From Escherichia coli (GTDB lineage Bacteria; Pseudomonadota; Gammaproteobacteria; Enterobacterales; Enterobacteriaceae), in NCBI RefSeq assembly GCF_016903815.1, contig NZ_CP069974.1: DNA of 64,000 bases. One strand, 5' to 3'. The notes under the pieces were generated by a model that was given only the letters and a program-made list of their open reading frames with translations, ran no database searches and was not told the DNA's origin. Position numbers and translations under genes: made by a program. Of this stretch, positions 537 to 51,600 are shown in pieces (positions within the stretch are counted from its first letter, which is position 1; each line of letters starts with the position of its first letter).

Positions 537-2990
537 TCAGTCTCCGCCCAGGGTTTTCTCTTTCTGCAGGTCACGAACCATATCCCGCTCCATCTGCTGC
601 AGACGCTCCTGCAGCAGATTTTCCCGGGCAACCTCCCGGACCGCTTCCCGTTCCCGTTGTGATTCACGCAGCACACTCTCCGGCAGTGCGGTTTCCCGTT
701 CAGAACTGGCAGTCCGGTCACGTTCCTGCCCGGCAATATCCCTGACAGCCAGCTCTGTTTTGCCGTCCGGCAGGTCAGGTTTGTTCTCTGCCATTTTACG
801 GACAATTTCATCTGCGCGACGTTCCGTTTCACGGCGGATGGCCTCTTCAGCCTGCCGCTGTGCCAGCACCTCTGCCGTGACCGGTTCGCCATTTCCGGCC
901 CCCGGCTGGACGCTGCTGTCCGGGATATCCCCCCACACGCGACCACCGGTGATGGCACCGGGATTCCACGGACGACCTTCACCGGCAATTCTTACCACCA
1001 CACCGCTGTCGGGATTATCACGGGCAATCCGGACACCATCCTGCATATTATCAGCCAGCAGGCTCTCTCCGTTACGGCTGCCCTGCAGGGCCACGAACTG
1101 CGCATCCCCGCGGCCTTTCACCCGTCCTTCACCGCTGAATCCCCGCAGCCCGTTTCCGTCATCCGTGGTCAGTGGGTTCAGCCAGATACCGGCGGACCTG
1201 CCGTTACGGTCAAACGCCGGCAGTGCCACATACGGCTGCGGATATTTACGTCCCGGTGCAATAAACCGTGCAGGGCTGTCTCCCCCGGCCAGCCCCGCCT
1301 GACGGAGAACGGCACGGCCTGCCGCCACGTCCCGCAGTTCCCGTGCCGTACTGAACAGCCGCTGCGCATTCATGACCTCCCGGTCCGGTTTCGGCTCAAA
1401 CACATCGTGGGCTGTTCCTTTCTGTACGGCATTGTTAATGGCATCCGTCCAGCCCTGACGGTTATCGGTGTACACCTGCACATGCTGCTTCATACGCGAC
1501 AGGGCCACGTAGGCTGACTCAAAGCCTGCCATCAGTTTCCGGTTACCTTCCGTGCCTTCAAGCGCAATGGCAAAGGTTTCACTTGTCCCCTGCGCACCGT
1601 GGGCGGTGATGGCATAGGCCAGGTCAATATGTTGCTCTGCCCGCTCCTGACCGGGGCGAATCACCCGGGTCTGCTGTCCGTCCGACAGCGTGACACTGTC
1701 ACCGGAAACCGCTGTCACCGTCCAGACGCTGTTGGCCACATAACCGCGCTCCCGGTCACTCTTCGTGAAGCGCATCCGGTCACCGGTTCCCACCCGGATT
1801 TTGTCTGGTGTGTACAGTGTGACACCTTCAGCCACCGCCTCCCGGGGCGAAATCAGCCGCGTGTTACCTTCCGCATCCTCCAGGGTTATCAGCCCGTCAT
1901 CCTTGCTGATACCGGCAATCCGGTGATACACACTATCCACCAGGGCAAGGGCATCCGGGTTATTCTCCCAGGTGGAGAGACGACGCAGTTCTCCGTCACG
2001 TATATTCGCTGTGTTCAGGACAGGCACCATGACCTGCTCTTTGCCCAGCTCACCGGCCTTTTCCCGTGCATCATGAATCATGCTGTTCAGTACGCGCCGG
2101 TCCTCATTCAGGTGCGTGACAATCAGCGTCTGCTCCCGTGCTTCCGGTGTCCTGCCGGTATAGTCGCGGACAATGGCCTCATACAGTGTCATGGGGATAT
2201 CCGGGAAAGCCTCGCCTTTCAGCATCGCCTTCTGCTGCGCTTCTGCCAGTTTCGCTTCCTGGCTGTGACTGAACTCCGTCACGGAGTGCTCCGGTGCCCA
2301 TGCGCCCTCCTGACGGGGAACCTGAGACGGTTTCACACTCTCAAGCCCGGACAGTGCCCTTTCCACATCCCGGTTAATCAGGCTGTATACCGCCTCCCGC
2401 AGTTCCGGCGTCTGACGCACAATCTCCTTCATGATGACCACATCGGCAGCACTGCGCGTCTGCTGCAGACGGAAAGGCTGACCGGGCGCGATGGCCTGCA
2501 GCTGGTCCGTGTCACCACTGGCCACGGCACGACCGCCACCGGCCGCAATCAGGGCGTATGCCCGTGCCATATCGGTATTGCCCACCATTGAGCTCTCATC
2601 GAGCAGGAACAGCGTGTTGCTGAAATCCGGCGTTTCTCCGCTGCGCTGCTGCAGCTGCGTGTCATGCAGAAAGGACGCCAGCGTCTGTGCATCCACGCCG
2701 GCGCTGCGCATCTCACCGACCGCACGGTGCGTGGGCCCCAGCCCCACAACTCGGGGACGCTCACTCGCCGGCAGCATGTTCACGGCTGACATCACCGCCC
2801 GGAACTGTGTGGTCTTACCCACACCGGCATAACCCTGTACCACCGTGAAACGGTCGGACGTTTCCAGTATCATACGGGTGGCGGCACGCTGTCCCGACGT
2901 TAACGTCTCCATGAGTTCGCCGGGTACTCTCTCCATCAACGGCGTGACCGCCTCCTTACCTTCGAGAATATGGCGAAGAATACTTTTTTC
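537..2990 (-). pseudogene. traI: traI 3' fragment (relaxase/helicase C-terminal part), severed by IS26
   Basis: ORF-track 1014-aa ORF matches F TraI C-terminal ~800 aa (from ...EKSILRHILEGKEAVTPLMERVPG... onward); its first ~200 codons run into IS26 and are not TraI. Confidence 0.9.
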
Positions 2991-3810: not shown

Positions 3811-4765
3811 TTAACAAGTTGTTTGGGTGTTCGAATTTCAACAGGTAAGTTAGTTGCTAGAACCCATGGCTCCTTTGCCGACGCTGAGTAGATTTTAGGT
3901 GACGGGTGGTGACAATGAGTCCGTGTCGAGCGCTGATTTTTTCGGCCTTTAGAGCGAGATTTATACAATAGAATTTGGCATGAGATTGGATTGCTTTTAG
4001 TCAGCCTCTTATAGCCTAAAGTCTTTGAGTGACTAGATGACATATCATGTAAGTTGCTGATAGGTTTCCAGTTTTCCGCTCCTAGGTCTGCATATTGTAC
4101 TTTTCCTCTTACTCGACTTAACCAGTACCAACCCAGCTTCTCAACGGATTTATACCATGGCACTTTAAAGCCAGCATCACTGACAATGAGCGGTGTGGTG
4201 TTACTCGGTAGAATGCTCGCAAGGTCGGCTAGAAATTGGTCATGAGCTTTCTTTGAACATTGCTCTGAAAGCGGGAACGCTTTCTCATAAAGAGTAACAG
4301 AACGACCGTGTAGTGCGACTGAAGCTCGCAATACCATAAGTCGTTTTTGCTCACGAATATCAGACCAGTCAACAAGTACAATGGGCATCGTATTGCCCGA
4401 ACAGATAAAGCTAGCATGCCAACGGTATACAGCGAGTCGCTCTTTGTGGAGGTGACGATTACCTAACAATCGGTCGATTCGTTTGATGTTATGTTTTGTT
4501 CTCGCTTTGGTTGGCAGGTTACGGCCAAGTTCGGTAAGAGTGAGAGTTTTACAGTCAAGTAATGCGTGGCAAGCCAACGTTAAGCTGTTGAGTCGTTTTA
4601 AGTGTAATTCGGGGCAGAATTGGTAAAGAGAGTCGTGTAAAATATCGAGTTCGCACATCTTGTTGTCTGATTATTGATTTTTCGCGAAACCATTTGATCA
4701 TATGACAAGATGTGTATCCACCTTAACTTAATGATTTTTACCAAAATCATTAGGGGATTCATCAG
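3811..4765 (-). mobile_element. Truncated IS10 (outside end plus 5' 955 bp), cut by IS26
   Basis: IS10 outside end CTGATGAATCCCCTAATGATTTTGGTAAAAATCATTAAG on minus strand ending at 4765; Tnp N-terminus MCELDILHDSLYQFCPELHLKRLNSLTLACH... (ORF 3792..4658). Confidence 0.8.
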
Positions 4766-5837
4766 AGCATGATATCAAAACGCTCTGAGCTGCTCGTTCG
4801 GCTATGGCGTAGGCCTAGTCCGTAGGCAGGACTTTTCAAGTCTCGGAAGGTTTCTTCAATCTGCATTCGCTTCGAATAGATATTAACAAGTTGTTTGGGT
4901 GTTCGAATTTCAACAGGTAAGTTAGTTGCTAGAACCCATGGCTCCTTTGCCGACGCTGAGTAGATTTTAGGTGACGGGTGGTGACAATGAGTCCGTGTCG
5001 AGCGCTGATTTTTTCGGCCTTTAGAGCGAGATTTATACAATAGAATTTGGCATGAGATTGGATTGCTTTTAGTCAGCCTCTTATAGCCTAAAGTCTTTGA
5101 GTGACTAGATGACATATCATGTAAGTTGCTGATAGGTTTCCAGTTTTCCGCTCCTAGGTCTGCATATTGTACTTTTCCTCTTACTCGACTTAACCAGTAC
5201 CAACCCAGCTTCTCAACGGATTTATACCATGGCACTTTAAAGCCAGCATCACTGACAATGAGCGGTGTGGTGTTACTCGGTAGAATGCTCGCAAGGTCGG
5301 CTAGAAATTGGTCATGAGCTTTCTTTGAACATTGCTCTGAAAGCGGGAACGCTTTCTCATAAAGAGTAACAGAACGACCGTGTAGTGCGACTGAAGCTCG
5401 CAATACCATAAGCCGTTTTTGCTCACGGATATCAGACCAGTCAACAAGTACAATGGGCATCGTATTGCCCGAACAGATAAAGCTAGCATGCCAACGGTAT
5501 ACAGCGAGTCGCTCTTTGTGGAGGTGACGATTACCTAACAATCGGTCGATTCGTTTGATGTTATGTTTTGTTCTCGCTTTGGTTGGCAGGTTACGGCCAA
5601 GTTCGGTAAGAGTGAGAGTTTTACAGTCAAGTAATGCGTGGCAAGCCAACGTTAAGCTGTTGAGTCGTTTTAAGTGTAATTCGGGGCAGAATTGGTAAAG
5701 AGAGTCGTGTAAAATATCGAGTTCGCACATCTTGTTGTCTGATTATTGATTTTTCGCGAAACCATTTGATCATATGACAAGATGTGTATCCACCTTAACT
5801 TAATGATTTTTACCAAAATCATTAGGGGATTCATCAG
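4766..5837 (-). mobile_element. Second truncated IS10 copy (5' 1072 bp) in direct tandem with the first
   Basis: Same IS10 end at 5837; Tnp N-terminal 322 aa (ORF 4762..5730); near-identical to 3811..4765 with 1072-bp period. Confidence 0.8.
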
Positions 5838-25254: not shown

Positions 25255-28206
25255 TTGAGTTTCGGGAGCCGCGGTTTTGACGTTTTGCGGGGACCTGCCT
25301 TTTGTTCCCTCCGGTATTCACCATCACCTTTTTGAGAACCTTCGCCGCAAGGGGCATCACTGCCACGGACGGAAACGACTGTCCGGGGGCAGACCGCAAA
25401 AGTTTTTGCCTGCTTCTGGGCAAAAAGTTTTGCGGGATGTGCATTTCACCCCTGGACTGGCGGAGACGGTTGTGGCTGTCTTTGCCCCCGGCGACAGGGG
25501 CTTAAACAGGTGAATGGCACCGGACAGAACAACGGGCAGGGACCCGCCGCAACGACGTGAAGCGCGGTTTGCGAAACGGCGTTGCCCCTTACATCCCGGC
25601 GGTCTTTTGCCGGGATGCCAGGAGCGCAGGCCACGGCGCGACAGAGGCGGCGCGACCGGAACGGTCGCTGCAAGCCAGGGGTTTTCACGCATCGGACCGT
25701 AGCGACAGCCCGAAACCGCGCCAGCGGGTTCGGCGGAGACTGGCAGGTGCGCCAGCAGCTGCCTGTCGGAGTCGGGCCTGACGACCGGATGCCGCCAGGC
25801 AGCCGGGAGCCGAAGGTGCGCGTGCGACAGGAAGTCGCTTAACGTATTGTTTTACATTGATAAAACCAGCTATCCCATTAGCTGTAGCCTACCGGGACAG
25901 GCGTTGCCGGCAACGGCGGGGTCTGAAGCTCCCGGGACAACGAGAGCCGGGCGTCAGCCCGGGTAATGCCCCGTGAGGGGCTTTACCTTGCTGCAAGCAT
26001 CATGCGGCAGGAGAGCAAGGCTGGTCAGAAGGGTTAACACATGTGAACTGTTGATAAACACCGTTATCGGCAACAGGCCAAAGATGCTGACAGGCCTGAA
26101 CCAAAAGGTACGGGGTCCGGTTGCTACCTCGCGCACAGGGAGCACATGGGCGCAGAGACCCCCGGTGAAGAGACAGAACCCGCCCTGACCCTCTGTATGT
26201 TAAGCGGAACCTGGTAAACCCGTATCGCTGCCTCACAGGCAGGTGAACCGCAAGGAACACTGTTAGCGGTGCGGGCATAGGAGGACGGAAAAAGCGAATG
26301 CCCGGCTGTAATAACCGGGATACGGGGCAGGTTCCCCGACGCGAAAGCGGGCAGACTTCCGTCTGGTCTTTAATTGCATGAAAAGCTGTAAAGCAGTCAA
26401 AAGGATATCAGCGAGATGAATACACACATCAGTGTGTCCACGATACCCCACCCGACAGGCTGGCACACCATAAACTGGAAAGCATGCCATGCCCGGGTGC
26501 GAAAGCTACAGTTACGGATTGCAAAGGCAACCCGACAGCAACAATGGCGGCAGGTCAGAGAACTACAGCGCATCCTCACCCGCTCATTCTCCGGCAAAGC
26601 CGTGGCTGTCAGGCGTGTAACTGAAAATACCGGTAAAAGGACACCCGGTATTGACGGAAAAATATGGCACACACCGAAGGAGAAATGGGAAGGAATATGC
26701 AGCCTGAATCTGTGTGGTTACAGGCCACAGCCACTACGGCGAATACATATCCCAAAATCAAACGGCAAAACGCGACCGCTGGGCATACCCACAATGAGGG
26801 ACCGGGCCATGCAGGCACTGTGGCTGCTGGCTCTGGAACCCGTATCCGAGACCACTGCTGACCATAACAGCTATGGTTTCAGACCAATGCGCAGCACGCA
26901 TGACGCCATTGAGTCCATTTTTCTGCGGATGAGCCAGAAAGTATCGCCCAAATGGATACTGGAGGGCGATATTAAAGGGTGCTTCGATAACATCAGCCAT
27001 GACTGGCTGCTTTCCCATATTCCGATGGACAGGAGACTGCTTAAAAAATGGTTGAAAGCAGGTTACATGGAAAGAGGCGTGTTTAACCATACGAACAGCG
27101 GGACACCGCAGGGAGGCATCATATCCCCTGTTCTCGCCAACATGGCTCTGGACGGACTGGAGAAGGAACTGATGCAAACGTTCAGGAAAAGTGGTTATCA
27201 CAGTGCAAAGCACCAGGTGAATTATGTGAGATATGCTGATGATTTCATCTGTTCAGGCAGCTCCCGTGAATTGCTGGAAAATGAGGTCAGACCACTGATT
27301 GCAGCTTTCATGCGCGAACGAGGGCTGGAACTGTCGGAAGAAAAAACAGCGATCACACATATAGATAAAGGCTTCGACTTTTTAGGGCAGAACGTCAGGA
27401 AGTACAACGGTAAAATGCTGATTAAACCGTCGAAGAAAAACCTGAAGAACTTCCTCTGTAAAGTCAGAGAAATAATTAAACGCAATCCGACGCTCCCGGC
27501 ATGGAAACTGATAGGCCAGCTAAACCCGGTGATCCGGGGATGGGCTACCTATCACCGACACGTCGTGGCGAAAGAAACATTTAATTATGTCGACACCCAA
27601 ATCTGGCGAGCTATATGGCGATGGTGTGTAAGACGGCATCCCCGGAAAGGATTGCGGTGGATCGCCGGACGATACTTCTCCTTTGAAGGCAGGCGCTGGA
27701 TCTTTAAAGCCATAACCCCGGAAGGGAAAATTCTGACACTCTTCCGGGCAATGGAAACACCGATAAAGCGCCATATAAAAATCAAAGGCGAAGCAACACC
27801 ATACACCCCCGGAATGGAAATCTACTTTGAACGTCGTCTGGATCTAATCTGGAAAGGCAAATCAAAGAAGATGAAGACAGTAGTTCAACTCTGGAAGAGG
27901 CAGGGGAAACACTGTCCGCAGTGCGGACAACTCATAACCAACCAGACCGGATGGAATATACATCACCGGATCAGGAAAGTTATGGGCGGCAGTGACGAAC
28001 TGACCAATCTCGAGTTGTTACATCCGAACTGCCACCGACAGTTACACAGCAGGGAAGCCGGTGCTCACCGAAAGCACTTATAAAGGCTTGAGCGGAGTGC
28101 GGGGAAACTCGCACGCTCCGTTCTTAGGGGGCGGCGGCGCAGCAATGTGCCGCTGCTACCCGACCCGGCAGACAGGACAACACTGCAGTAGTCAGAATCA
28201 GAGCAG
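25255..28206 (+). mobile_element. Group II intron, copy A (RT/maturase with HNH endonuclease)
   Basis: Intron-encoded protein ORF plus domain V hairpin GAGCGGAGTGCGGGGAAACTCGCACGCTCCGTTC at 28093-28126; ends approximate (5' start lacks canonical GUGYG, 3' end between 28164 and 28206). Confidence 0.75.
26416..28083 (+). CDS. Group II intron-encoded reverse transcriptase/maturase/HNH endonuclease (555 aa)
   Basis: RT motifs incl. YVRYADDF, maturase X region, C-terminal CPQCG...HH HNH. Confidence 0.9.
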   Translation: MNTHISVSTIPHPTGWHTINWKACHARVRKLQLRIAKATRQQQWRQVRELQRILTRSFSGKAVAVRRVTENTGKRTPGIDGKIWHTPKEKWEGICSLNLCGYRPQPLRRIHIPKSNGKTRPLGIPTMRDRAMQALWLLALEPVSETTADHNSYGFRPMRSTHDAIESIFLRMSQKVSPKWILEGDIKGCFDNISHDWLLSHIPMDRRLLKKWLKAGYMERGVFNHTNSGTPQGGIISPVLANMALDGLEKELMQTFRKSGYHSAKHQVNYVRYADDFICSGSSRELLENEVRPLIAAFMRERGLELSEEKTAITHIDKGFDFLGQNVRKYNGKMLIKPSKKNLKNFLCKVREIIKRNPTLPAWKLIGQLNPVIRGWATYHRHVVAKETFNYVDTQIWRAIWRWCVRRHPRKGLRWIAGRYFSFEGRRWIFKAITPEGKILTLFRAMETPIKRHIKIKGEATPYTPGMEIYFERRLDLIWKGKSKKMKTVVQLWKRQGKHCPQCGQLITNQTGWNIHHRIRKVMGGSDELTNLELLHPNCHRQLHSREAGAHRKHL

Positions 28207-28477
28207 GAAGAAAAAGAGAATAATCACAGGGAAGGTGATGTGATTTCTGACAGGCCATAACCAGAGAAGGCGGGGGAAAAGAACGGGCGCCGCAGGCGCG
28301 CGTTCATCCCCGTTCCTGAAGGGAAACGACCTTCCTGAAGTCAGGTTGTTCATGCCCGTACAACATCAGCAAGGAGAAAGGGGCTACCGGCGAACCAGCA
28401 GCCCCTTTATAAAGGCGCTTCAGTAGTCAGACCAGCATCAGTCCTGAAAAGGCGGGCCTGCGCCCGCCTCCAGGTTG

Positions 28478-33500: not shown

Positions 33501-36997
<3,497 letters not shown>

Positions 36998-37039
36998 GAT
37001 GTGCCTCCTTCTGTTGATGTTTTCAGCCCCCATCATCTT

Positions 37040-39991
37040 TTGAGTTTCGGGAGCCGCGGTTTTGACGTTTTGCGGGGACCTGCCTTTTGTTCCCTCCGGT
37101 ATTCACCATCACCTTTTTGAGAACCTTCGCCGCATGGGGCATCACTGCCACGGACGGAAACGACTGTCCGGGGGCAGACCGCAAAAGTTTTTGCCTGCTT
37201 CTGGGCAAAAAGTTTTGCGGGATGTGCATTTCACCCCTGGACTGGCGGAGACGGTTGTGGCTGTCTTTGCCCCCGGCGACAGGGGCTTAAACAGGTGAAT
37301 GGCACCGGACAGAACAACGGGCAGGGACCCGCCGCAACGACGTGAAGCGCGGTTTGCGAAACGGCGTTGCCCCTTACATCCCGGCGGTCTTTTGCCGGGA
37401 TGCCAGGAGCGCAGGCCACGGCGCGACAGAGGCGGCGCGACCGGAACGGTCGCTGCAAGCCAGGGGTTTTCACGCATCGGACCGTAGCGACAGCCCGAAA
37501 CCGCGCCAGCGGGTTCGGCGGAGACTGGCAGGTGCGCCAGCAGCTGCCTGTCGGAGTCGGGCCTGACGACCGGATGCCGCCAGGCAGCCGGGAGCCGAAG
37601 GTGCGCGTGCGACAGGAAGTCGCTTAACGTATTGTTTTACATTGATAAAACCAGCTATCCCATTAGCTGTAGCCTACCGGGACAGGCGTTGCCGGCAACG
37701 GCGGGGTCTGAAGCTCCCGGGACAACGAGAGCCGGGCGTCAGCCCGGGTAATGCCCCGTGAGGGGCTTTACCTTGCTGCAAGCATCATGCGGCAGGAGAG
37801 CAAGGCTGGTCAGAAGGGTTAACACATGTGAACTGTTGATAAACACCGTTATCGGCAACAGGCCAAAGATGCTGACAGGCCTGAACCAAAAGGTACGGGG
37901 TCCGGTTGCTACCTCGCGCACAGGGAGCACATGGGCGCAGAGACCCCCGGTGAAGAGACAGAACCCGCCCTGACCCTCTGTATGTTAAGCGGAACCTGGT
38001 AAACCCGTATCGCTGCCTCACAGGCAGGTGAACCGCAAGGAACACTGTTAGCGGTGCGGGCATAGGAGGACGGAAAAAGCGAATGCCCGGCTGTAATAAC
38101 CGGGATACGGGGCAGGTTCCCCGACGCGAAAGCGGGCAGACTTCCGTCTGGTCTTTAATTGCATGAAAAGCTGTAAAGCAGTCAAAAGGATATCAGCGAG
38201 ATGAATACACACATCAGTGTGTCCACGATACCCCACCCGACAGGCTGGCACACCATAAACTGGAAAGCATGCCATGCCCGGGTGCGAAAGCTACAGTTAC
38301 GGATTGCAAAGGCAACCCGACAGCAACAATGGCGGCAGGTCAGAGAACTACAGCGCATCCTCACCCGCTCATTCTCCGGCAAAGCCGTGGCTGTCAGGCG
38401 TGTAACTGAAAATACCGGTAAAAGGACACCCGGTATTGACGGAAAAATATGGCACACACCGAAGGAGAAATGGGAAGGAATATGCAGCCTGAATCTGTGT
38501 GGTTACAGGCCACAGCCACTACGGCGAATACATATCCCAAAATCAAACGGCAAAACGCGACCGCTGGGCATACCCACAATGAGGGACCGGGCCATGCAGG
38601 CACTGTGGCTGCTGGCTCTGGAACCCGTATCCGAGACCACTGCTGACCATAACAGCTATGGTTTCAGACCAATGCGCAGCACGCATGACGCCATTGAGTC
38701 CATTTTTCTGCGGATGAGCCAGAAAGTATCGCCCAAATGGATACTGGAGGGCGATATTAAAGGGTGCTTCGATAACATCAGCCATGACTGGCTGCTTTCC
38801 CATATTCCGATGGACAGGAGACTGCTTAAAAAATGGTTGAAAGCAGGTTACATGGAAAGAGGCGTGTTTAACCATACGAACAGCGGGACACCGCAGGGAG
38901 GCATCATATCCCCTGTTCTCGCCAACATGGCTCTGGACGGACTGGAGAAGGAACTGATGCAAACGTTCAGGAAAAGTGGTTATCACAGTGCAAAGCACCA
39001 GGTGAATTATGTGAGATATGCTGATGATTTCATCTGTTCAGGCAGCTCCCGTGAATTGCTGGAAAATGAGGTCAGACCACTGATTGCAGCTTTCATGCGC
39101 GAACGAGGGCTGGAACTGTCGGAAGAAAAAACAGCGATCACACATATAGATAAAGGCTTCGACTTTTTAGGGCAGAACGTCAGGAAGTACAACGGTAAAA
39201 TGCTGATTAAACCGTCGAAGAAAAACCTGAAGAACTTCCTCTGTAAAGTCAGAGAAATAATTAAACGCAATCCGACGCTCCCGGCATGGAAACTGATAGG
39301 CCAGCTAAACCCGGTGATCCGGGGATGGGCTACCTATCACCGACACGTCGTGGCGAAAGAAACATTTAATTATGTCGACACCCAAATCTGGCGAGCTATA
39401 TGGCGATGGTGTGTAAGACGGCATCCCCGGAAAGGATTGCGGTGGATCGCCGGACGATACTTCTCCTTTGAAGGCAGGCGCTGGATCTTTAAAGCCATAA
39501 CCCCGGAAGGGAAAATTCTGACACTCTTCCGGGCAATGGAAACACCGATAAAGCGCCATATAAAAATCAAAGGCGAAGCAACACCATACACCCCCGGAAT
39601 GGAAATCTACTTTGAACGTCGTCTGGATCTAATCTGGAAAGGCAAATCAAAGAAGATGAAGACAGTAGTTCAACTCTGGAAGAGGCAGGGGAAACACTGT
39701 CCGCAGTGCGGACAACTCATAACCAACCAGACCGGATGGAATATACATCACCGGATCAGGAAAGTTATGGGCGGCAGTGACGAACTGACCAATCTCGAGT
39801 TGTTACATCCGAACTGCCACCGACAGTTACACAGCAGGGAAGCCGGTGCTCACCGAAAGCACTTATAAAGGCTTGAGCGGAGTGCGGGGAAACTCGCACG
39901 CTCCGTTCTTAGGGGGCGGCGGCGCAGCAATGTGCCGCTGCTACCCGACCCGGCAGACAGGACAACACTGCAGTAGTCAGAATCAGAGCAG
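37040..39991 (+). mobile_element. Group II intron, copy B (identical protein to copy A)
   Basis: Same offsets as copy A (+11785); immediately upstream of and divergent from ssb. Confidence 0.75.
38201..39868 (+). CDS. Group II intron RT/maturase/HNH (copy B)
   Basis: 555 aa, identical to copy A. Confidence 0.9.
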   Translation: MNTHISVSTIPHPTGWHTINWKACHARVRKLQLRIAKATRQQQWRQVRELQRILTRSFSGKAVAVRRVTENTGKRTPGIDGKIWHTPKEKWEGICSLNLCGYRPQPLRRIHIPKSNGKTRPLGIPTMRDRAMQALWLLALEPVSETTADHNSYGFRPMRSTHDAIESIFLRMSQKVSPKWILEGDIKGCFDNISHDWLLSHIPMDRRLLKKWLKAGYMERGVFNHTNSGTPQGGIISPVLANMALDGLEKELMQTFRKSGYHSAKHQVNYVRYADDFICSGSSRELLENEVRPLIAAFMRERGLELSEEKTAITHIDKGFDFLGQNVRKYNGKMLIKPSKKNLKNFLCKVREIIKRNPTLPAWKLIGQLNPVIRGWATYHRHVVAKETFNYVDTQIWRAIWRWCVRRHPRKGLRWIAGRYFSFEGRRWIFKAITPEGKILTLFRAMETPIKRHIKIKGEATPYTPGMEIYFERRLDLIWKGKSKKMKTVVQLWKRQGKHCPQCGQLITNQTGWNIHHRIRKVMGGSDELTNLELLHPNCHRQLHSREAGAHRKHL

Positions 39992-40006
39992 CAGGAAAAA
40001 GAAGAA

Positions 40007-40045
40007 CAGTAGCAGTAGCAGTAGCAGTAGCAGTAGCAGTAGCAG
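40007..40045. repeat. Hexanucleotide microsatellite (CAGTAG)6 plus partial unit
   Basis: Perfect tandem units at 40007-40042; absent from the equivalent flank of intron copies A and C. Confidence 0.9.
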
Positions 40046-40220
40046 GAACAACAACATCAGTAACAGACAAATGACAGGCATGAAGAAACAGAAGCCCCCA
40101 TCAGAACGTCCGCGTAATGAAAGGGGCGGCGCGTGAGCGCGGCCCCTTTCAGCGCCACCGGCGCGCGTTTTTTCCCGGCGCGGGCAGACAGGCATTTATC
40201 CTCCCGCCGGCCCTGTGTCA

Positions 40221-40784
40221 TCAGGCACGCAGACGAATAATCATCGTCGGGACATCGGTATAAGCAAACGTGCCGCGCGGCAGCTCCTCGCGGACGTCAG
40301 AAAACGGTAACAGCTTCTCCTGCTGGCGTGGTCCGTTGAGACAGACGGCGACCAGCACGCCACCCGGACGCAACAGGGAAAAGGCCCGCAGGATATGCCG
40401 GATATCCTGCCCGTGGCTGAACGGCGGATTCATGATAACCCGGCTGTAATACTGCACCGGCAGCCATTCCATGAAGTCGCCACACTGAACCCTGACACCG
40501 TTAAAATTTTCCCGCAGATACCGGACCAGCCCGCTGTTGATTTCCACCGCATCACACATGGCCCCCGGCGCGGTATCCCGAATCGCCCGCAGTATGGCCC
40601 CGGTGCCGGCAGAGGGTTCCAGAATGTGATCACGGTTGCTGATCTCCGCCAGCATCACCAGGCGATCACAGACCGGGGCAGGAGTCACAAAAAGCTGAGA
40701 TTCAGCCCGGATTTCAGCAACCGGCGCGGCGTTATCCAGCCTTGCGCGCATCAGCCGGATACGTTCTCTTAACTGACTGTGCAT
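40221..40784 (-). CDS. SAM-dependent methyltransferase (amino-methyltransferase motifs EPSAGTG and NPPF); probable orphan DNA methyltransferase
   Basis: 187-aa ORF with motif I and motif IV. Confidence 0.7.
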   Translation of the reverse strand: MHSQLRERIRLMRARLDNAAPVAEIRAESQLFVTPAPVCDRLVMLAEISNRDHILEPSAGTGAILRAIRDTAPGAMCDAVEINSGLVRYLRENFNGVRVQCGDFMEWLPVQYYSRVIMNPPFSHGQDIRHILRAFSLLRPGGVLVAVCLNGPRQQEKLLPFSDVREELPRGTFAYTDVPTMIIRLRA

Positions 40785-40831
40785 ATCATTATCTCCGTCA
40801 TCCCCCGGGGATTTTCCCGGGGGGATATACC

Positions 40832-42193
40832 TTATTTCTGTGGGATTTCCGTGATTTTCATGTCGGAGATATACACATTCACCAGGCGGAAATTATTGTC
40901 CATTGTGCGGCGGTACCGGTATGCCCCGTGGTCTTCTGCTTCTGCCACACTGCGCACGGCCTTACAGTCCCGGGGCAGGGCGGCCCACTGTGCCTTTGTC
41001 ATTTCCCGGAAACCTTCCCCCGGATAGTTGACTACCGGCGGACGCTTCGCGGCCTGACTGGCGACGGCAGCCTCTTCTGCCGATGGTGCTTTGTAGTCCG
41101 TGATGCGATCGGGCGTCACTTTCATCGTGCCGCTGTACCCGAGAAAACTGTAATTTGGCGTTGTGACTGAACTCACCGCCCCGTTGCTTTTGTTCACACG
41201 GATGATGGTCAGCCACTCGCCCCGGCTGAAAACCTGTCCGCCCGGCTCAAAATCCTGTGTCCGGGTAACCACGCCGCCGCTTTCGTCCAGCATGGCACGC
41301 TCATAGATCAGGCGGTTCTGATAGTGGTTAACCCAGCGTTGTTGATGCTGAATCTGCCGTTCATGACAGCGGATCGCAATTTCGCGGGCCTGCTCCGTGG
41401 TGATGATGTCATCATCCAGGGCCGACCATAACGATCGACTTCCTTCATACTGGCTTTTTTCTGCCGGGCGCGGATACGTATCCAGCGGGAAACAGGCGCT
41501 GATATGGTCATGACTGCTGATGAGTTTTGCCATATTCAGATCCAGCGATTCAGCCCGCCACATCGTCAGATATTTCTGCGACTGCGCGATGGTCTTTTCA
41601 GCCTTGCGCAAATCAGCTTCGATTTTTTTGATACGACGCCAGCGAACGTCCGGACGTTCTTTATACTTCGCGTGAAGCAGTGCCGACCGCGCCCGCTCTT
41701 CCCAGTATTCCGCACGTTCAAAGAGCATCACGGCTCGTTTCATGCCGTTTTCAATACGCTGCGCATCACGACGGGCGCGGCGTTCGCTGTGATGCCCCAC
41801 AAGAATGGGCTGACCGGGCGGGATCATCGCGGCCAGTCTTTCCACTTCATCAAGTGCCTGTGCGGATTCACTGGCCCGCTTTCCGCTGTATCCGGTAAAC
41901 CGCTCCGCCCGTGCTTCCTGACGTTCAGCGAGCGTGCTGTCTTCATCCTCAATCTCTCCGGCAAGTGAGAGGAGCACGTCTTCCCGGCCCGGTGTCCAGG
42001 CTGGCGCGACAAACAGCGCCTGTTTTGGTGCCCAGCGGAAACCGGCATCATGCACTTTTTTATACGTCTCCGGGTCAAGACGTGACACGGCATACAGGCG
42101 CAGTTTGTTGTCATCCGGTGAGTAGGTCGCGCGGTACATCTGCACAGGGCTGGCGGCTTCCGGGGCGGTCATGGTGATTGCTGCTAATGTCAT
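40832..42193 (-). CDS. Conserved leading-region protein of unknown function (453 aa)
   Basis: Long ORF with good coding character; family not verified. Confidence 0.6.
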   Translation of the reverse strand: MTLAAITMTAPEAASPVQMYRATYSPDDNKLRLYAVSRLDPETYKKVHDAGFRWAPKQALFVAPAWTPGREDVLLSLAGEIEDEDSTLAERQEARAERFTGYSGKRASESAQALDEVERLAAMIPPGQPILVGHHSERRARRDAQRIENGMKRAVMLFERAEYWEERARSALLHAKYKERPDVRWRRIKKIEADLRKAEKTIAQSQKYLTMWRAESLDLNMAKLISSHDHISACFPLDTYPRPAEKSQYEGSRSLWSALDDDIITTEQAREIAIRCHERQIQHQQRWVNHYQNRLIYERAMLDESGGVVTRTQDFEPGGQVFSRGEWLTIIRVNKSNGAVSSVTTPNYSFLGYSGTMKVTPDRITDYKAPSAEEAAVASQAAKRPPVVNYPGEGFREMTKAQWAALPRDCKAVRSVAEAEDHGAYRYRRTMDNNFRLVNVYISDMKITEIPQK

Positions 42194-42244: not shown

Positions 42245-42475
42245 TCAGTTAAAAGCGCGTTTCAGTTCGAGTGTGCGGAGCACCTGCCCGAAGGCCGTGT
42301 TTTTCATGGCGGGGATGTGTACACCACGCCCCCGGTGAAAACTCCGGGCAATGTGTCGCCCGAAGGCTTTCAGCACGGGGTCAATTTCCGGCGCGGGGAT
42401 GTCTTCGCGTCTGAAACGGGGATGACGGCGGGGCTTTACAGCCGCTGCGGAAGGTGAAACAATACTTACTGTCAT
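42245..42475 (-). CDS. Small hypothetical protein
   Basis: 76-aa ORF upstream of the 453-aa gene. Confidence 0.3.
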   Translation of the reverse strand: MTVSIVSPSAAAVKPRRHPRFRREDIPAPEIDPVLKAFGRHIARSFHRGRGVHIPAMKNTAFGQVLRTLELKRAFN

Positions 42476-42713
42476 AATTTAGCCTCTTATGACGTTAATT
42501 AATGAAACCGTAAAGACTGTTCGTGCAGTCTCTGCGGTGTGGATTAAGCAGGTCCCTGACCTGCTTTTTTCATATCTGCGTCTGACGTTCTCCGGTGTTT
42601 TCCTCCTTCTGTTCCTGCGTTCTCATTACCTGCCAGCCGGATGACTGACAGAACACATAAATGCGTATTGCCGGAGCCTGAAATAAATCCTGATTTTTAA
42701 AGAACATCACCCG

Positions 42714-45662
42714 TTGAGTTTCGGGAGCCGCGGTTTTGACGTTTCGCGGGAACCTGCTGCTGTATACCCTGTGGTATGAACTTCACCCGTTTGAGAACCT
42801 TCGCCGCAAGGGGCATCACTGCCACGGCCTGACGCACCTGTCCTGGGCAGAACGCAAAATTTTTTACCGGGTTTTGGGTAAAAAATTTTGTGGGCTGTTC
42901 ATTTACCCTGGACAGTCAGTGCGGCAGGTTGTGGCTGTATCAGCCCCAGGCGACAGGGACTCATACGGGTGTGTGGCACCGGCAGGCAATGAGCAGGGAC
43001 CCGCCGCAACGACGGAGAGCGCGTGCGCGAAACGGCGTTGCCCCTTACATCCCGGCGGCCTTTTGCCGGGATGCCGGGAGCGCAGGCCACGGCGCGACAA
43101 GGGTGGCGCGACCGGAACGGTCGCTGCAAGCCCGGGGTTTTCACGCATCGGACCGTAGCGACAGCCCGAAACCGCGCCAGCGGGTTCGGCGGAGACTGGC
43201 GGGTGCGCCAGCAGCTGCCTGTCGGAGTCGGGCCTGACGACCGGATGCCGCCAGGCAGCCGGGAGCCGAAGGTGCGCGTGCGACAGGAAGTCGCTTAACG
43301 TATTGTTTTACATTGATAAAACCAGCTATCCCATTAGCTGTAGCCTACCGGGACAGGCGTTGCCGGCAACGGCGGGGTCTGAAGCTCCCGGGACAACGAG
43401 AGCCGGGCGTCAGCCCGGGTAATGCCCCGTGAGGGGCTTTACCTTGCTGCAAGCATCATGCGGCAGGAGAGCAAGGCTGGTCAGAAGGGTTAACACATGT
43501 GAACTGTTGATAAACACCGTTATCGGCAACAGGCCAAAGATGCTGACAGGCCTGAACCAAAAGGTACGGGGTCCGGTTGCTACCTCGCGCACAGGGAGCA
43601 CATGGGCGCAGAGACCCCCGGTGAAGAGACAGAACCCGCCCTGACCCTCTGTATGTTAAGCGGAACCTGGTAAACCCGTATCGCTGCCTCACAGGCAGGT
43701 GAACCGCAAGGAACACTGTTAGCGGTGCGGGCATAGGAGGACGGAAAAAGCGAATGCCCGGCTGTAATAACCGGGATACGGGGCAGGTTCCCCGACGCGA
43801 AAGCGGGCAGACTTCCGTCTGGTCTTTAATTGCATGAAAAGCTGTAAAGCAGTCAAAAGGATATCAGCGAGATGAATACACACATCAGTGTGTCCACGAT
43901 ACCCCACCCGACAGGCTGGCACACCATAAACTGGAAAGCATGCCATGCCCGGGTGCGAAAGCTACAGTTACGGATTGCAAAGGCAACCCGACAGCAACAA
44001 TGGCGGCAGGTCAGAGAACTACAGCGCATCCTCACCCGCTCATTCTCCGGCAAAGCCGTGGCTGTCAGGCGTGTAACTGAAAATACCGGTAAAAGGACAC
44101 CCGGTATTGACGGAAAAATATGGCACACACCGAAGGAGAAATGGGAAGGAATATGCAGCCTGAATCTGTGTGGTTACAGGCCACAGCCACTACGGCGAAT
44201 ACATATCCCAAAATCAAACGGCAAAACGCGACCGCTGGGCATACCCACAATGAGGGACCGGGCCATGCAGGCACTGTGGCTGCTGGCTCTGGAACCCGTA
44301 TCCGAGACCACTGCTGACCATAACAGCTATGGTTTCAGACCAATGCGCAGCACGCATGACGCCATTGAGTCCATTTTTCTGCGGATGAGCCAGAAAGTAT
44401 CGCCCAAATGGATACTGGAGGGCGATATTAAAGGGTGCTTCGATAACATCAGCCATGACTGGCTGCTTTCCCATATTCCGATGGACAGGAGACTGCTTAA
44501 AAAATGGTTGAAAGCAGGTTACATGGAAAGAGGCGTGTTTAACCATACGAACAGCGGGACACCGCAGGAAGGCATCATATCCCCTGTTCTCGCCAACATG
44601 GCTCTGGACGGACTGGAGAAGGAACTGATGCAAACGTTCAGGAAAAGTGGTTATCACAGTGCAAAGCACCAGGTGAATTATGTGAGATATGCTGATGATT
44701 TCATCTGTTCAGGCAGCTCCCGTGAATTGCTGGAAAATGAGGTCAGACCACTGATTGCAGCTTTCATGCGCGAACGAGGGCTGGAACTGTCGGAAGAAAA
44801 AACAGCGATCACACATATAGATAAAGGCTTCGACTTTTTAGGGCAGAACGTCAGGAAGTACAACGGTAAAATGCTGATTAAACCGTCGAAGAAAAACCTG
44901 AAGAACTTCCTCTGTAAAGTCAGAGAAATAATTAAACGCAATCCGACGCTCCCGGCATGGAAACTGATAGGCCAGCTAAACCCGGTGATCCGGGGATGGG
45001 CTACCTATCACCGACACGTCGTGGCGAAAGAAACATTTAATTATGTCGACACCCAAATCTGGCGAGCTATATGGCGATGGTGTGTAAGACGGCATCCCCG
45101 GAAAGGATTGCGGTGGATCGCCGGACGATACTTCTCCTTTGAAGGCAGGCGCTGGATCTTTAAAGCCATAACCCCGGAAGGGAAAATTCTGACACTCTTC
45201 CGGGCAATGGAAACACCGATAAAGCGCCATATAAAAATCAAAGGCGAAGCAACACCATACACCCCCGGAATGGAAATCTACTTTGAACGTCGTCTGGATC
45301 TAATCTGGAAAGGCAAATCAAAGAAGATGAAGACAGTAGTTCAACTCTGGAAGAGGCAGGGGAAACACTGTCCGCAGTGCGGACAACTCATAACCAACCA
45401 GACCGGATGGAATATACATCACCGGATCAGGAAAGTTATGGGCGGCAGTGACGAACTGACCAATCTCGAGTTGTTACATCCGAACTGCCACCGACAGTTA
45501 CACAGCAGGGAAGCCGGTGCTCACCGAAAGCACTTATAAAGGCTTGAGCGGAGTGCGGGGAAACTCGCACGCTCCGTTCTTAGGGGGCGGCGGCGCAGCA
45601 ATGTGCCGCTGCTACCCGACCCGGCAGACAGAACAACACTGCAGTAGTCAGAATCAGAGCAG
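42714..45662 (+). mobile_element. Group II intron, copy C (diverged 5' ~330 nt, 1 aa difference in protein)
   Basis: Same architecture; protein differs Q->E in GTPQ(G/E)GIISP. Confidence 0.75.
43872..45539 (+). CDS. Group II intron RT/maturase/HNH (copy C)
   Basis: 555 aa. Confidence 0.9.
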   Translation: MNTHISVSTIPHPTGWHTINWKACHARVRKLQLRIAKATRQQQWRQVRELQRILTRSFSGKAVAVRRVTENTGKRTPGIDGKIWHTPKEKWEGICSLNLCGYRPQPLRRIHIPKSNGKTRPLGIPTMRDRAMQALWLLALEPVSETTADHNSYGFRPMRSTHDAIESIFLRMSQKVSPKWILEGDIKGCFDNISHDWLLSHIPMDRRLLKKWLKAGYMERGVFNHTNSGTPQEGIISPVLANMALDGLEKELMQTFRKSGYHSAKHQVNYVRYADDFICSGSSRELLENEVRPLIAAFMRERGLELSEEKTAITHIDKGFDFLGQNVRKYNGKMLIKPSKKNLKNFLCKVREIIKRNPTLPAWKLIGQLNPVIRGWATYHRHVVAKETFNYVDTQIWRAIWRWCVRRHPRKGLRWIAGRYFSFEGRRWIFKAITPEGKILTLFRAMETPIKRHIKIKGEATPYTPGMEIYFERRLDLIWKGKSKKMKTVVQLWKRQGKHCPQCGQLITNQTGWNIHHRIRKVMGGSDELTNLELLHPNCHRQLHSREAGAHRKHL

Positions 45663-46040
45663 CAGATAAAGGAACAACAACATCAGGAACAGTTCCATAA
45701 CATAAGAAAGAAACACTCCTGAGTCAGACACATCACAGACGGGAAGGGTAACGGGCGACGCGCCAGCGTGGCCCGCTTCCCTTCCGGCAGGCGTCAGCCT
45801 GCCAGGGGTTTTCGCGCGGACTGACAGGCGGCCTCCACCGCCTGCCCCTGTATCACCTGTTTCTGCTACCCTGTAAGATGTAGTGACCGCCCAGGAAAAC
45901 CGCCTGCTGATTCGCCACAAAATCGCAGATTTCATCAACAATCTGCGCGGTGGTGAGCGGTTTCTGCCCCATTTCACGACGCCGCGCATTAATCACGGCC
46001 CTGTAATTACGCAGAATTTCGCGGGTTTCTGTGCTGATAT

Positions 46041-51209: not shown

Positions 51210-51600
51210 CGCTGATAGTCTGATCGACAATACAAGTGGGACCGTGGTCCCAGACCGATAATCAGACCGACAACACGAGTGGGATCGTGGTCCCAGACTA
51301 ATAATCAGACCGACGATACGAGTGGGACCGTGGTCCCAGACTAATAATCAGACCGACGATACGAGTGGGACCGTGGTCCCAGACTAATAATCAGACCGAC
51401 GATACGAGTGGGACCATGGTCCCAGACTAATAATCAGACCGACGATACGAGTGGGACCATGGTCCCAGACTAATAATCAGACCGACGATACGAGTGGGAC
51501 CGTGGTCCCAGACTAATAATCAGACCGACGATACGAGTGGGACCGTGGTCCCAGTCTGATTATCAGACCGACGATACAAGTGGAACAGTGGGCCCAGAGA
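51210..51600. repeat. sopC: sopC centromere: 43-bp direct repeats each with TGGGACCGTGGTCCCA inverted motif (8 good units plus 1 degenerate)
   Basis: Period 43 bp from 51236; downstream of sopB. Confidence 0.9.

What the first reader, a model, noticed from the sequence alone, without database searches (positions are those of the whole stretch)
40007..40045. (CAGTAG)6 hexanucleotide microsatellite just past intron copy B and the methyltransferase gene
Six perfect CAGTAG units occur only after copy B; the equivalent flanks of copies A and C have related but non-repetitive sequence. The tract lies about 170 bp beyond the stop of the minus-strand methyltransferase and next to a GC-rich hairpin. 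Repeat-number change could alter termination or 3' UTR structure.
Basis: seen in the sequence. Interest (0 to 1): 0.3.

Follow-up and report, generated by a model that had tools for sequence, protein, structure and literature searches.

The report
Known plasmid typing microsatellite (VNTR-37)
The six-unit CAGTAG repeat is real, but it is the same variable-number repeat already used as marker VNTR-37/O157-37 to fingerprint E. coli O157:H7, sitting in a non-coding spacer of an F-type plasmid, so it is ordinary.

Summary
The tract (CAGTAG)6CAG at 40007-40045 is real and far beyond chance. It lies in the leading region of an IncF plasmid, in an A-rich, T-poor non-coding spacer. That spacer separates a DUF3560/SAM-methyltransferase operon from the Frpo-type single-stranded-DNA promoter that precedes ssb. 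Unit number varies widely in relatives with near-identical flanks: 1, 2, 4, 5, 6, 7, 8, 10, 14 and 18.

The tract has nothing to do with the group II intron, because plasmids with an empty intron site carry it too. It is the orthologue of the PulseNet MLVA locus VNTR-37 (O157-37) on pO157. The published primers flank the CAGTAG tract with zero mismatches in four pO157 records, and EDL933 has 7 units, as published.

I found no support for a regulatory or coding role. No reading frame with a conserved start crosses the tract, and there is no promoter-like site. The tract is predicted to be unpaired, and changing the unit number from 1 to 18 leaves the predicted Frpo hairpin and GC hairpin unchanged.

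Best reading: a slippage-prone, probably neutral microsatellite. It is already known and of low interest.

The parts
40007..40045 (.). (CAGTAG)6CAG microsatellite, the orthologue of MLVA locus VNTR-37 / O157-37
   Evidence: TRF; sequence; chance control; primer mapping on pO157 loci; unit counts in relatives
39950..40110 (+). A-rich, T-poor spacer (A 42%, T 10% on the + strand, which is the T-strand) in which the tract sits. Predicted to be largely unstructured.
   Evidence: Composition; folds
40104..40130 (-). Site homologous to the VNTR-37 forward primer, with 2 mismatches in this plasmid
   Evidence: primers from PMC3321953
39953..39992 (+). Position of the VNTR-37 reverse primer. In this plasmid it is replaced by the diverged left-flank variant that carries the intron homing site (10 edits against the primer).
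40117..40151 (.). GC-rich hairpin next to the tract. It has 14 predicted pairs, unchanged by repeat number, and no T-run on the gene (minus) strand.
40152..40174 (+). Terminator-like stem plus T-run on the plus strand only
40221..40784 (-). Class I SAM-dependent methyltransferase, the last clear gene upstream of the tract in the direction of transcription
   Evidence: ORF; annotation in relatives
39983..40195 (-). 70-aa ORF with a poly-Leu stretch read through the tract. PGAP annotates it as 'hypothetical protein' in relatives. I judge it spurious.
37607..39949 (+). Group II intron copy B (2343 nt, 5' GTGCG). It is inserted 57 nt from the tract and is unrelated to it.
   Evidence: Rfam; empty-site homology; sequence
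37046..37366 (+). Frpo-type (class 1) single-stranded-DNA promoter hairpin of the T-strand, upstream of the ssb operon. The tract lies about 300 nt 3' of its base once the intron is removed.
   Evidence: DNA fold; 97% and 89% identity to the two Frpo regions of plasmid F; literature PMC9849209

Best explanation
The tract is a slippage-prone hexanucleotide microsatellite in a non-coding intergenic spacer of the leading region of IncF-type plasmids. It is the same locus that is used as VNTR-37 (O157-37) in MLVA typing of E. coli O157:H7.

The spacer separates the end of the DUF3560/SAM-methyltransferase operon from the Frpo-type single-stranded-DNA promoter that drives the ssb operon. On the transferred strand the spacer is A-rich, T-poor and unstructured. 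It already contains scattered CAG/CAGTAG motifs.

Inference: from a single CAGTAG-CAG seed, as still seen in an E. albertii plasmid, slipped-strand mispairing during replication adds and removes whole 6-nt units. This gives alleles from 1 to at least 18 units.

The unit is a multiple of three. The tract is outside the promoter hairpin, outside any conserved ORF, and does not pair with its surroundings. Length changes are therefore most likely selectively neutral. The locus is a marker, not a switch.

Shown here: the tract, its polymorphism, its identity with VNTR-37, its independence from the intron, and its position relative to the Frpo element and the methyltransferase.

Inferred: neutrality, and slippage as the mechanism. 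Slippage is supported by published passage experiments.
For: - Perfect 39-nt tract, far beyond chance.
- Unit counts of 1, 2, 4, 5, 6, 7, 8, 10, 14 and 18 on near-identical flanks, with variation within each of three flank haplotypes.
- Four records of the clonal pO157 plasmid have 5, 6, 7 and 7 units.
- The VNTR-37 primers from PMC3321953 flank the tract with 0 mismatches in the pO157 loci.
- A 184-nt amplicon with 7 units matches EDL933 and Sakai pO157 at 100%. This agrees with the published EDL933 allele 7 (PMC3777172).
- Published figures for the locus: 3-17 repeats and 11 alleles in 202 strains. Whole-unit gains and losses occur at about 8.5e-5 per generation in serial passage.
- Near-identical plasmid records share the same match length (H2/H3, H15/H16, H26-H28), so the rate is moderate rather than extreme.
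- The tract is present at seven empty intron sites outside pO157 (L004, L008-L013).
- All three minus-strand frames are open in every locus because that strand is A-poor. Start codons of the poly-Leu frame differ between loci, and one locus has a stop.
- No Pfam or NCBIfam match for four candidate peptides.
- No promoter-like site in 39900-40900.
- The tract has P(unpaired) of about 0.6-0.66, against 0.34 for the flanks. Flank structure is insensitive to unit number.
Against: - Neutrality was not measured. Nobody, to my knowledge, has compared isogenic plasmids that differ only in unit number.
- The tract is very probably transcribed, as part of a read-through or ssDNA-templated leading-region transcript. 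I found no canonical terminator between the methyltransferase and the tract, so an RNA-level effect cannot be excluded.
- The A-rich, T-poor composition recurs beside all three Frpo copies. This suggests the spacer itself may be under some constraint.
- My sample of explicit unit counts is 18 loci plus length proxies from BLAST tables, not a full census.
Confidence: 0.85

Rival explanations
1. Tunable cis-regulatory spacer. Unit number would set the distance or the RNA/ssDNA context between the end of the methyltransferase operon and the Frpo promoter. That would modulate termination or read-through, Rho loading, mRNA stability, or SSB/RNA-polymerase loading on the incoming T-strand. The effect would be graded rather than on/off.
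For: - The tract lies between two early-expressed operons, with no canonical minus-strand terminator between them.
- An A-rich, T-poor, unstructured spacer is a shared feature of all three Frpo flanks.
- Frpo elements are functionally important for early gene expression (PMC9849209; PMC12672017).
Against: - The tract is about 300 nt from the base of the promoter hairpin, not inside it.
- Predicted RNA and ssDNA structures of the flanks do not change between 1 and 18 units.
- No promoter-like site overlaps the tract.
- An 18-fold range of lengths is tolerated on otherwise identical backbones. Plasmid F works without this module at all.
- By inspection of the motif, the CUGCUA repeat contains no YC dinucleotides of the kind that rut sites use.
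Confidence: 0.08
2. Coding repeat. The tract would encode a variable homopolymeric or dipeptide stretch in a small protein. Candidates are poly-Leu in a minus-strand ORF, which in some plasmids starts at a UGAUG overlap with the methyltransferase stop; Ala-Thr in the second minus frame; or poly-Ser in the plus-strand ORF called L7083 on pO157.
For: - PGAP and the original pO157 annotation call hypothetical proteins across the tract ('inside ORF L7083').
- In one flank haplotype the poly-Leu frame starts at an ATG that overlaps the methyltransferase stop. It has an Arg-rich N-terminus and a hydrophobic tail.
- A 6-nt unit never breaks a reading frame.
Against: - Different pipelines pick different ORFs on both strands.
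- All three minus-strand frames are open simply because that strand is A-poor.
- The poly-Leu frame has three different start situations among 14 sequences (the window and 13 loci), and one of them has an in-frame stop.
- By my reading of the translations, the substitutions between flank haplotypes that I compared in that frame are all non-synonymous.
- The left half of the Ala-Thr ORF is replaced wholesale in another haplotype.
- No family match in Pfam or NCBIfam.
- The putative N-termini coincide with GC-rich hairpins.
Confidence: 0.05
3. The tract is a by-product or component of the group II intron, either as part of the homing site or as exon sequence carried along with it.
For: The tract lies 57 nt past the 3' end of intron copy B.
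Against: - Plasmids with an empty site B have the tract: L004 (100% identical flanks, 6 units), L008 to L013, and all the pO157 loci.
- Plasmids whose left flank lacks the intron target sequence still have the tract (L012, L013, pO157).
- Intron copies A and C have no such array.
Confidence: 0.01

Closest known systems
MLVA locus VNTR-37 / O157-37 of E. coli O157:H7 (Keys et al. 2005; PulseNet protocol of Hyytia-Trees et al.), on plasmid pO157
   Same: Same 6-nt unit (CAGTAG on this strand). Same genomic position between the SAM-methyltransferase and the Frpo/ssb region of an F-type leading region. The right flank is about 92% identical (H171). The published primers bracket the tract exactly in pO157. 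It shows the same whole-unit length polymorphism.
   Different: The window is a different IncF plasmid. Its left flank is the variant that carries a group II intron homing site, and it is occupied by the intron. As a result the reverse primer site is diverged (10 edits) and the forward site has 2 mismatches. The standard PCR would probably give a null allele here.
Simple-sequence contingency loci (phase-variable genes of Haemophilus, Neisseria, Campylobacter)
   Same: A perfect short tandem repeat that changes length by slipped-strand mispairing.
   Different: The unit is a multiple of three, so it causes no frameshift. It is not in a conserved ORF and not between the -35 and -10 of a promoter. 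No on/off target gene is apparent.
Frpo / ssi class 1 single-stranded-DNA promoters of F and IncI1 plasmids
   Same: The tract is a neighbour of one. The adjacent repeated element is 97% and 89% identical to the two Frpo regions of F and folds into a hairpin of about 320 nt.
   Different: The tract is outside the hairpin and unpaired. It is absent from plasmid F and from the other two Frpo copies in this window.

Membership tests
VNTR-37 / O157-37 MLVA locus | Tandem array of a 6-bp unit | tested here: met
   TRF gives period 6, 6.5 copies, 100% match. The literature gives a 6-bp repeat length.
VNTR-37 / O157-37 MLVA locus | Array bracketed by the published primer pair | tested here: inconclusive
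   There are 0 mismatches at both sites in the four pO157 loci, with the CAGTAG array in between. In the window the forward site has 2 mismatches and the reverse site is replaced by a diverged flank variant. Orthology of the window tract therefore rests on the shared right flank (about 92% identity), on synteny, and on intermediate plasmids L012/L013, which have 3 and 2 mismatches.
VNTR-37 / O157-37 MLVA locus | Located on an F-type plasmid (pO157), overlapping the hypothetical ORF L7083 | tested here: met
   pO157 loci L015-L018 place the tract between the methyltransferase and ssb, under a plus-strand hypothetical ORF whose length tracks the unit number. The window has the same gene order.
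VNTR-37 / O157-37 MLVA locus | Copy number polymorphic among isolates, with reference allele EDL933 = 7 | tested here: met
   I counted 1-18 units across loci. A 7-unit amplicon matches EDL933 pO157 at 100% over 184 nt, against the published allele 7.
Phase-variable contingency locus | Repeat changes shift a reading frame or alter -35/-10 spacing of a defined gene | tested here: not met
   The unit is 6 nt. There is no conserved ORF, no promoter-like site and no family hits.
Frpo class 1 ssDNA promoter | Sequence forms part of the long imperfect hairpin that reconstitutes the promoter | tested here: not met
   The hairpin spans 37046-37366. The tract is unpaired and lies about 300 nt away in the intron-less arrangement. 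The hairpin's 119 pairs are unchanged for 1-18 units.
Intrinsic terminator or 3' UTR structural element of the methyltransferase operon | GC-rich stem followed by a U-run on the gene strand, with the repeat taking part in or adjoining the stem | tested here: not met
   No minus-strand terminator-like site lies between 40045 and 40221. The GC hairpin is unaffected by unit number.

The most novel reading that the evidence does not exclude
The length of the CAGTAG tract might act as a heritable rheostat during plasmid establishment. One route would be setting the amount of unstructured, SSB-poor, A-rich single-stranded DNA next to the Frpo promoter on the incoming T-strand. Another would be changing read-through from the methyltransferase operon into the ssb operon. 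A third would be varying the hydrophobic tail of a micro-peptide translationally coupled to the methyltransferase. Under this reading, plasmid lineages would explore different early-expression levels in new hosts.
Probability: 0.05. Interest if true: 0.5.

Novelty: already known. Interest (0 to 1): 0.1.

Why it matters
There is little to discover here, but three practical points follow.

1. The O157:H7 typing marker VNTR-37 is not specific to pO157. The same locus is present in about half of complete E. coli genomes (2,760 of 5,426). It is also in about 3,000 PLSDB plasmids from Escherichia, Klebsiella, Salmonella, Shigella and others. It could therefore serve as a quick marker for tracking IncF plasmid lineages.

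2. Flank variants and the group II intron insertion next to the reverse primer site are a plausible source of null or oversized alleles.

3. Annotation pipelines routinely call contradictory 'hypothetical proteins' across this repeat on both strands. These should be treated as artefacts.

Tried and rejected
- **Intron-associated origin:** rejected, because empty-site plasmids carry the tract.
- **Part of the Frpo hairpin:** rejected by the DNA fold.
- **Coding:** I examined all three minus-strand frames in the window and 13 loci and scanned four candidate peptides against NCBIfam and Pfam, with no hits. Rejected as unsupported.
- **Promoter spacer or terminator:** the scan found no promoter-like site and only a plus-strand terminator-like site.
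- **Structure-switch idea:** refolding with 1-18 units showed no change in flank structure.
- **Rfam:** nothing at the tract at gathering thresholds.
- **Literature string search** for CAGTAGCAGTAGCAGTAG: no papers.
- **Searches 'O157-36 / O157-37 / plasmid' and 'VNTR-36 / pO157':** no papers. The link was found through 'Vhec7' and 'VNTR-37'.
- **Accessions AP001918.1 and NC_007414.1** are not in the collections. I used NC_002483.1 for F and a BLAST of the 7-unit amplicon for EDL933.
- **Exact allele frequencies from BLAST identity bands:** abandoned, because partial alignments that start inside the tract contaminate the >=99% band.
- **Identity of the plus-strand intron:** not resolved. EcI5 is native to pO157. 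The pO157 records listed matched only the flanks of my query, so this intron is not present in them.

Full report
**Observation.** The sequence at 40007-40045 reads (CAGTAG)6CAG. Tandem Repeats Finder lists it as period 6, 6.5 copies, 100% matches, score 78. It is the longest perfect short-period tract in the 64-kb window. The next longest for periods 2-7 is 14 nt, and 200 shuffles of the window never gave a period-6 run longer than 17 nt.
- The methyltransferase ORF (40221-40784, minus strand) ends 176 nt away.
- A GC-rich hairpin sits at 40117-40151.
- The equivalent flanks of intron copies A and C are related but carry no CAGTAG array.

**Context.** The window is an IncF-type plasmid. Rfam finds AS-traI, IS10 RNA-OUT and group II intron domains. 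BLAST finds the 381 nt around the tract in 4,316 PLSDB plasmids, mostly conjugative Escherichia, Klebsiella, Salmonella and Shigella plasmids. Annotated relatives show the leading-region gene order on the minus strand: antirestriction, DUF1380, a small ORF, DUF3560, SAM-methyltransferase, then the tract, a 68-aa ORF, ssb, DUF905 and ParB-like.

Comparison with plasmid F (NC_002483.1) fixes the orientation. The window's plus strand corresponds to F's minus strand. That is the transferred T-strand and the template of the leading genes (this is an inference from the positions of oriT and traM).

**The surrounding repeated element.** Three identical copies of a 2,343-nt group II intron lie on the plus strand. 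Hits to empty sites show that the true 5' end of copy B is the GTGCG at 37607 and the 3' end is 39949. Each copy interrupts a repeated element of about 620 nt. Positions 37019-37469 of that element are 97% and 89% identical to two regions of F. The 89% copy abuts ssb, where Frpo2 is described. The 97% copy lies just upstream of the ORF at L014 19033-19320, which I take to be ygeA and therefore Frpo1 (PMC9849209). With DNA parameters the plus strand folds into a hairpin of about 320 nt at 37046-37366, as described for these single-stranded-DNA promoters. The tract lies outside this hairpin. In the intron-less arrangement it is about 300 nt 3' of the hairpin base, in a stretch that is 42% A and 10% T on the plus strand. 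The flanks at sites A and C are similarly T-poor.

**Independence from the intron.** L004 (NZ_OZ040717.1) is an exact empty site B with 100% identical flanks and also has 6 units. L008 to L013 and four pO157 records lack the intron and still have the tract. L012, L013 and pO157 even carry a different left flank without the intron homing sequence, and the tract is still there.

**Polymorphism.** Explicit unit counts in 18 loci:

| Units | Locus or loci |
|---|---|
| 1 | L011 (E. albertii) |
| 2 | L010 (Salmonella) |
| 4 | L007 |
| 5 | L016 |
| 6 | window, L002, L004, L012, L015 |
| 7 | L001, L003, L017, L018 |
| 8 | L013 (Klebsiella) |
| 10 | L008, L009 |
| 14 | L006 |
| 18 | L005 |

- The number varies within each of three flank haplotypes, so changes have recurred.
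- Full-length BLAST matches in two spread samples differ from the query length mostly in steps consistent with 6-nt units combined with a neighbouring CAT-triplet indel.
- Near-identical plasmid records share the same length (H2/H3, H15/H16, H26-H28).
- The locus is found in 2,760 of 5,426 complete E. coli genomes.

**Identification.** Four pO157 records differed by 6-nt steps on identical flanks, so I checked the O157:H7 MLVA literature. PMC3321953 lists VNTR-37 as a 6-bp repeat on plasmid pO157, 'inside ORF L7083', with 3-17 repeats, 11 alleles in 202 strains and a diversity index of 0.82. It also gives the primers. Both primers match the four pO157 loci with zero mismatches and bracket the CAGTAG array, giving amplicons of 172-184 nt for 5-7 units. 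A 184-nt amplicon with 7 units matches pO157 of EDL933 and Sakai at 100% over its whole length. This agrees with the published EDL933 allele O157-37 = 7 (PMC3777172). That paper measured whole-unit gains and losses at this locus at about 8.5e-5 per generation in serial passage. In the window plasmid the forward primer site has 2 mismatches and the reverse site is replaced by the diverged flank variant. The window tract is therefore an orthologous allele on another IncF plasmid, and the standard assay would probably miss it.

**Tests of function.**
- *Coding.* All three minus-strand frames are open across the tract in every locus, which is expected for an A-poor strand. The poly-Leu frame starts at an ATG overlapping the methyltransferase stop in one haplotype and at a different ATG in the window type. 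In four loci only an internal ATG is available, and one of those also has an in-frame stop. Annotators call different hypothetical ORFs on both strands: poly-Leu and Ala-Thr on the minus strand, and poly-Ser on the plus strand in pO157. Four candidate peptides have no Pfam or NCBIfam match.
- *Promoter or terminator.* There is no promoter-like site in 39900-40900 and no terminator-like site on the gene strand between the methyltransferase and the tract. The only nearby hit is on the plus strand at 40152-40164.
- *Structure.* The tract has a mean unpaired probability of about 0.6-0.66, against 0.34 for its flanks. Rebuilding the region with 1, 2, 6, 10 or 18 units keeps 294 of 294 flank pairs in the minus-strand RNA fold for n=2-18. 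It also keeps all 119 Frpo-hairpin pairs and all 14 GC-hairpin pairs in the T-strand DNA fold.

**Conclusion.** The feature is real and polymorphic, but it is an already described typing microsatellite. It most likely evolves by replication slippage without functional consequence. What I add is modest:
- its exact setting between the methyltransferase operon and the Frpo promoter of the ssb operon;
- its presence far beyond O157:H7;
- a wider allele range of 1-18 units;
- the observation that flank variants and an adjacent group II intron can disturb the standard primers.

A regulatory or coding role is not excluded, but nothing found here supports one.

Noticed in passing
window 25822-28164, 37607-39949, 43278-45620 (+ strand): Three identical 2,343-nt group II introns (555-aa IEP with an HNH region). 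Each is inserted at the same position in the 3' extension of a Frpo-type ssDNA promoter element. All are in the sense of the transferred T-strand, so antisense to the leading genes and not spliceable from their mRNAs. In relatives, sites are occupied independently (L002 has B but not C). The orientation suggests homing into the single-stranded T-strand. Intron identity is not resolved; the pO157 records listed do not contain it.
   Followed up: partly
window 34298-36700 approx. (- strand; IEP ORF 34444-36345): A second, different group II intron (633-aa LtrA-like IEP; RF00029 hit at 34298-34418) lies between the 68-aa ORF and ssb, on the gene strand.
   Followed up: no
window 39950-40110, 28165-28260, 45621-45720: All three Frpo copies are followed on the T-strand by an A-rich, T-poor (10-15% T), CAG-rich, predicted unstructured spacer. 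The recurrence suggests a compositional constraint of unknown meaning.
   Followed up: partly
window 37470-37606 + 39950-39993; compare L002:7271-7390, L012, L013, L014 (F), L015 (pO157): The Frpo element has two alternative 3' extensions. One carries the intron homing site (window type). The other (GCGTCAGGGATGGAAGCCCGCC...) is found in F, pO157 and Klebsiella plasmids and lacks it. The VNTR sits next to either.
   Followed up: partly
window 40046-40062; L003:7426-7480: Further slippage-type polymorphisms occur next to the tract: CAACAACATCAG versus CAACAACATCATCAG at site B, and a (CAA)n length difference at site C of L003.
   Followed up: partly
window 51225-51598: A large tandem array: 43-nt unit, 8.7 copies, 94% matches, TRF score 636. 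It may be iteron-like or a partition site.
   Followed up: no
window 39983-40195 (-), 40057-40221 (-); L004:2671-2928; L015:1214-1663: Public annotations place mutually incompatible 'hypothetical proteins' over the repeat on both strands (poly-Leu, Ala-Thr, poly-Ser). Their lengths track the unit number. These are likely annotation artefacts.
   Followed up: yes
window 42470-42569 (+), 2882-2958 (+), 4651-4720 and 5723-5792 (+): Rfam hits to AS-pc01 (antisense to pHK01_035, just downstream of Frpo copy C), to AS-traI, and to two IS10 RNA-OUT copies.
   Followed up: no
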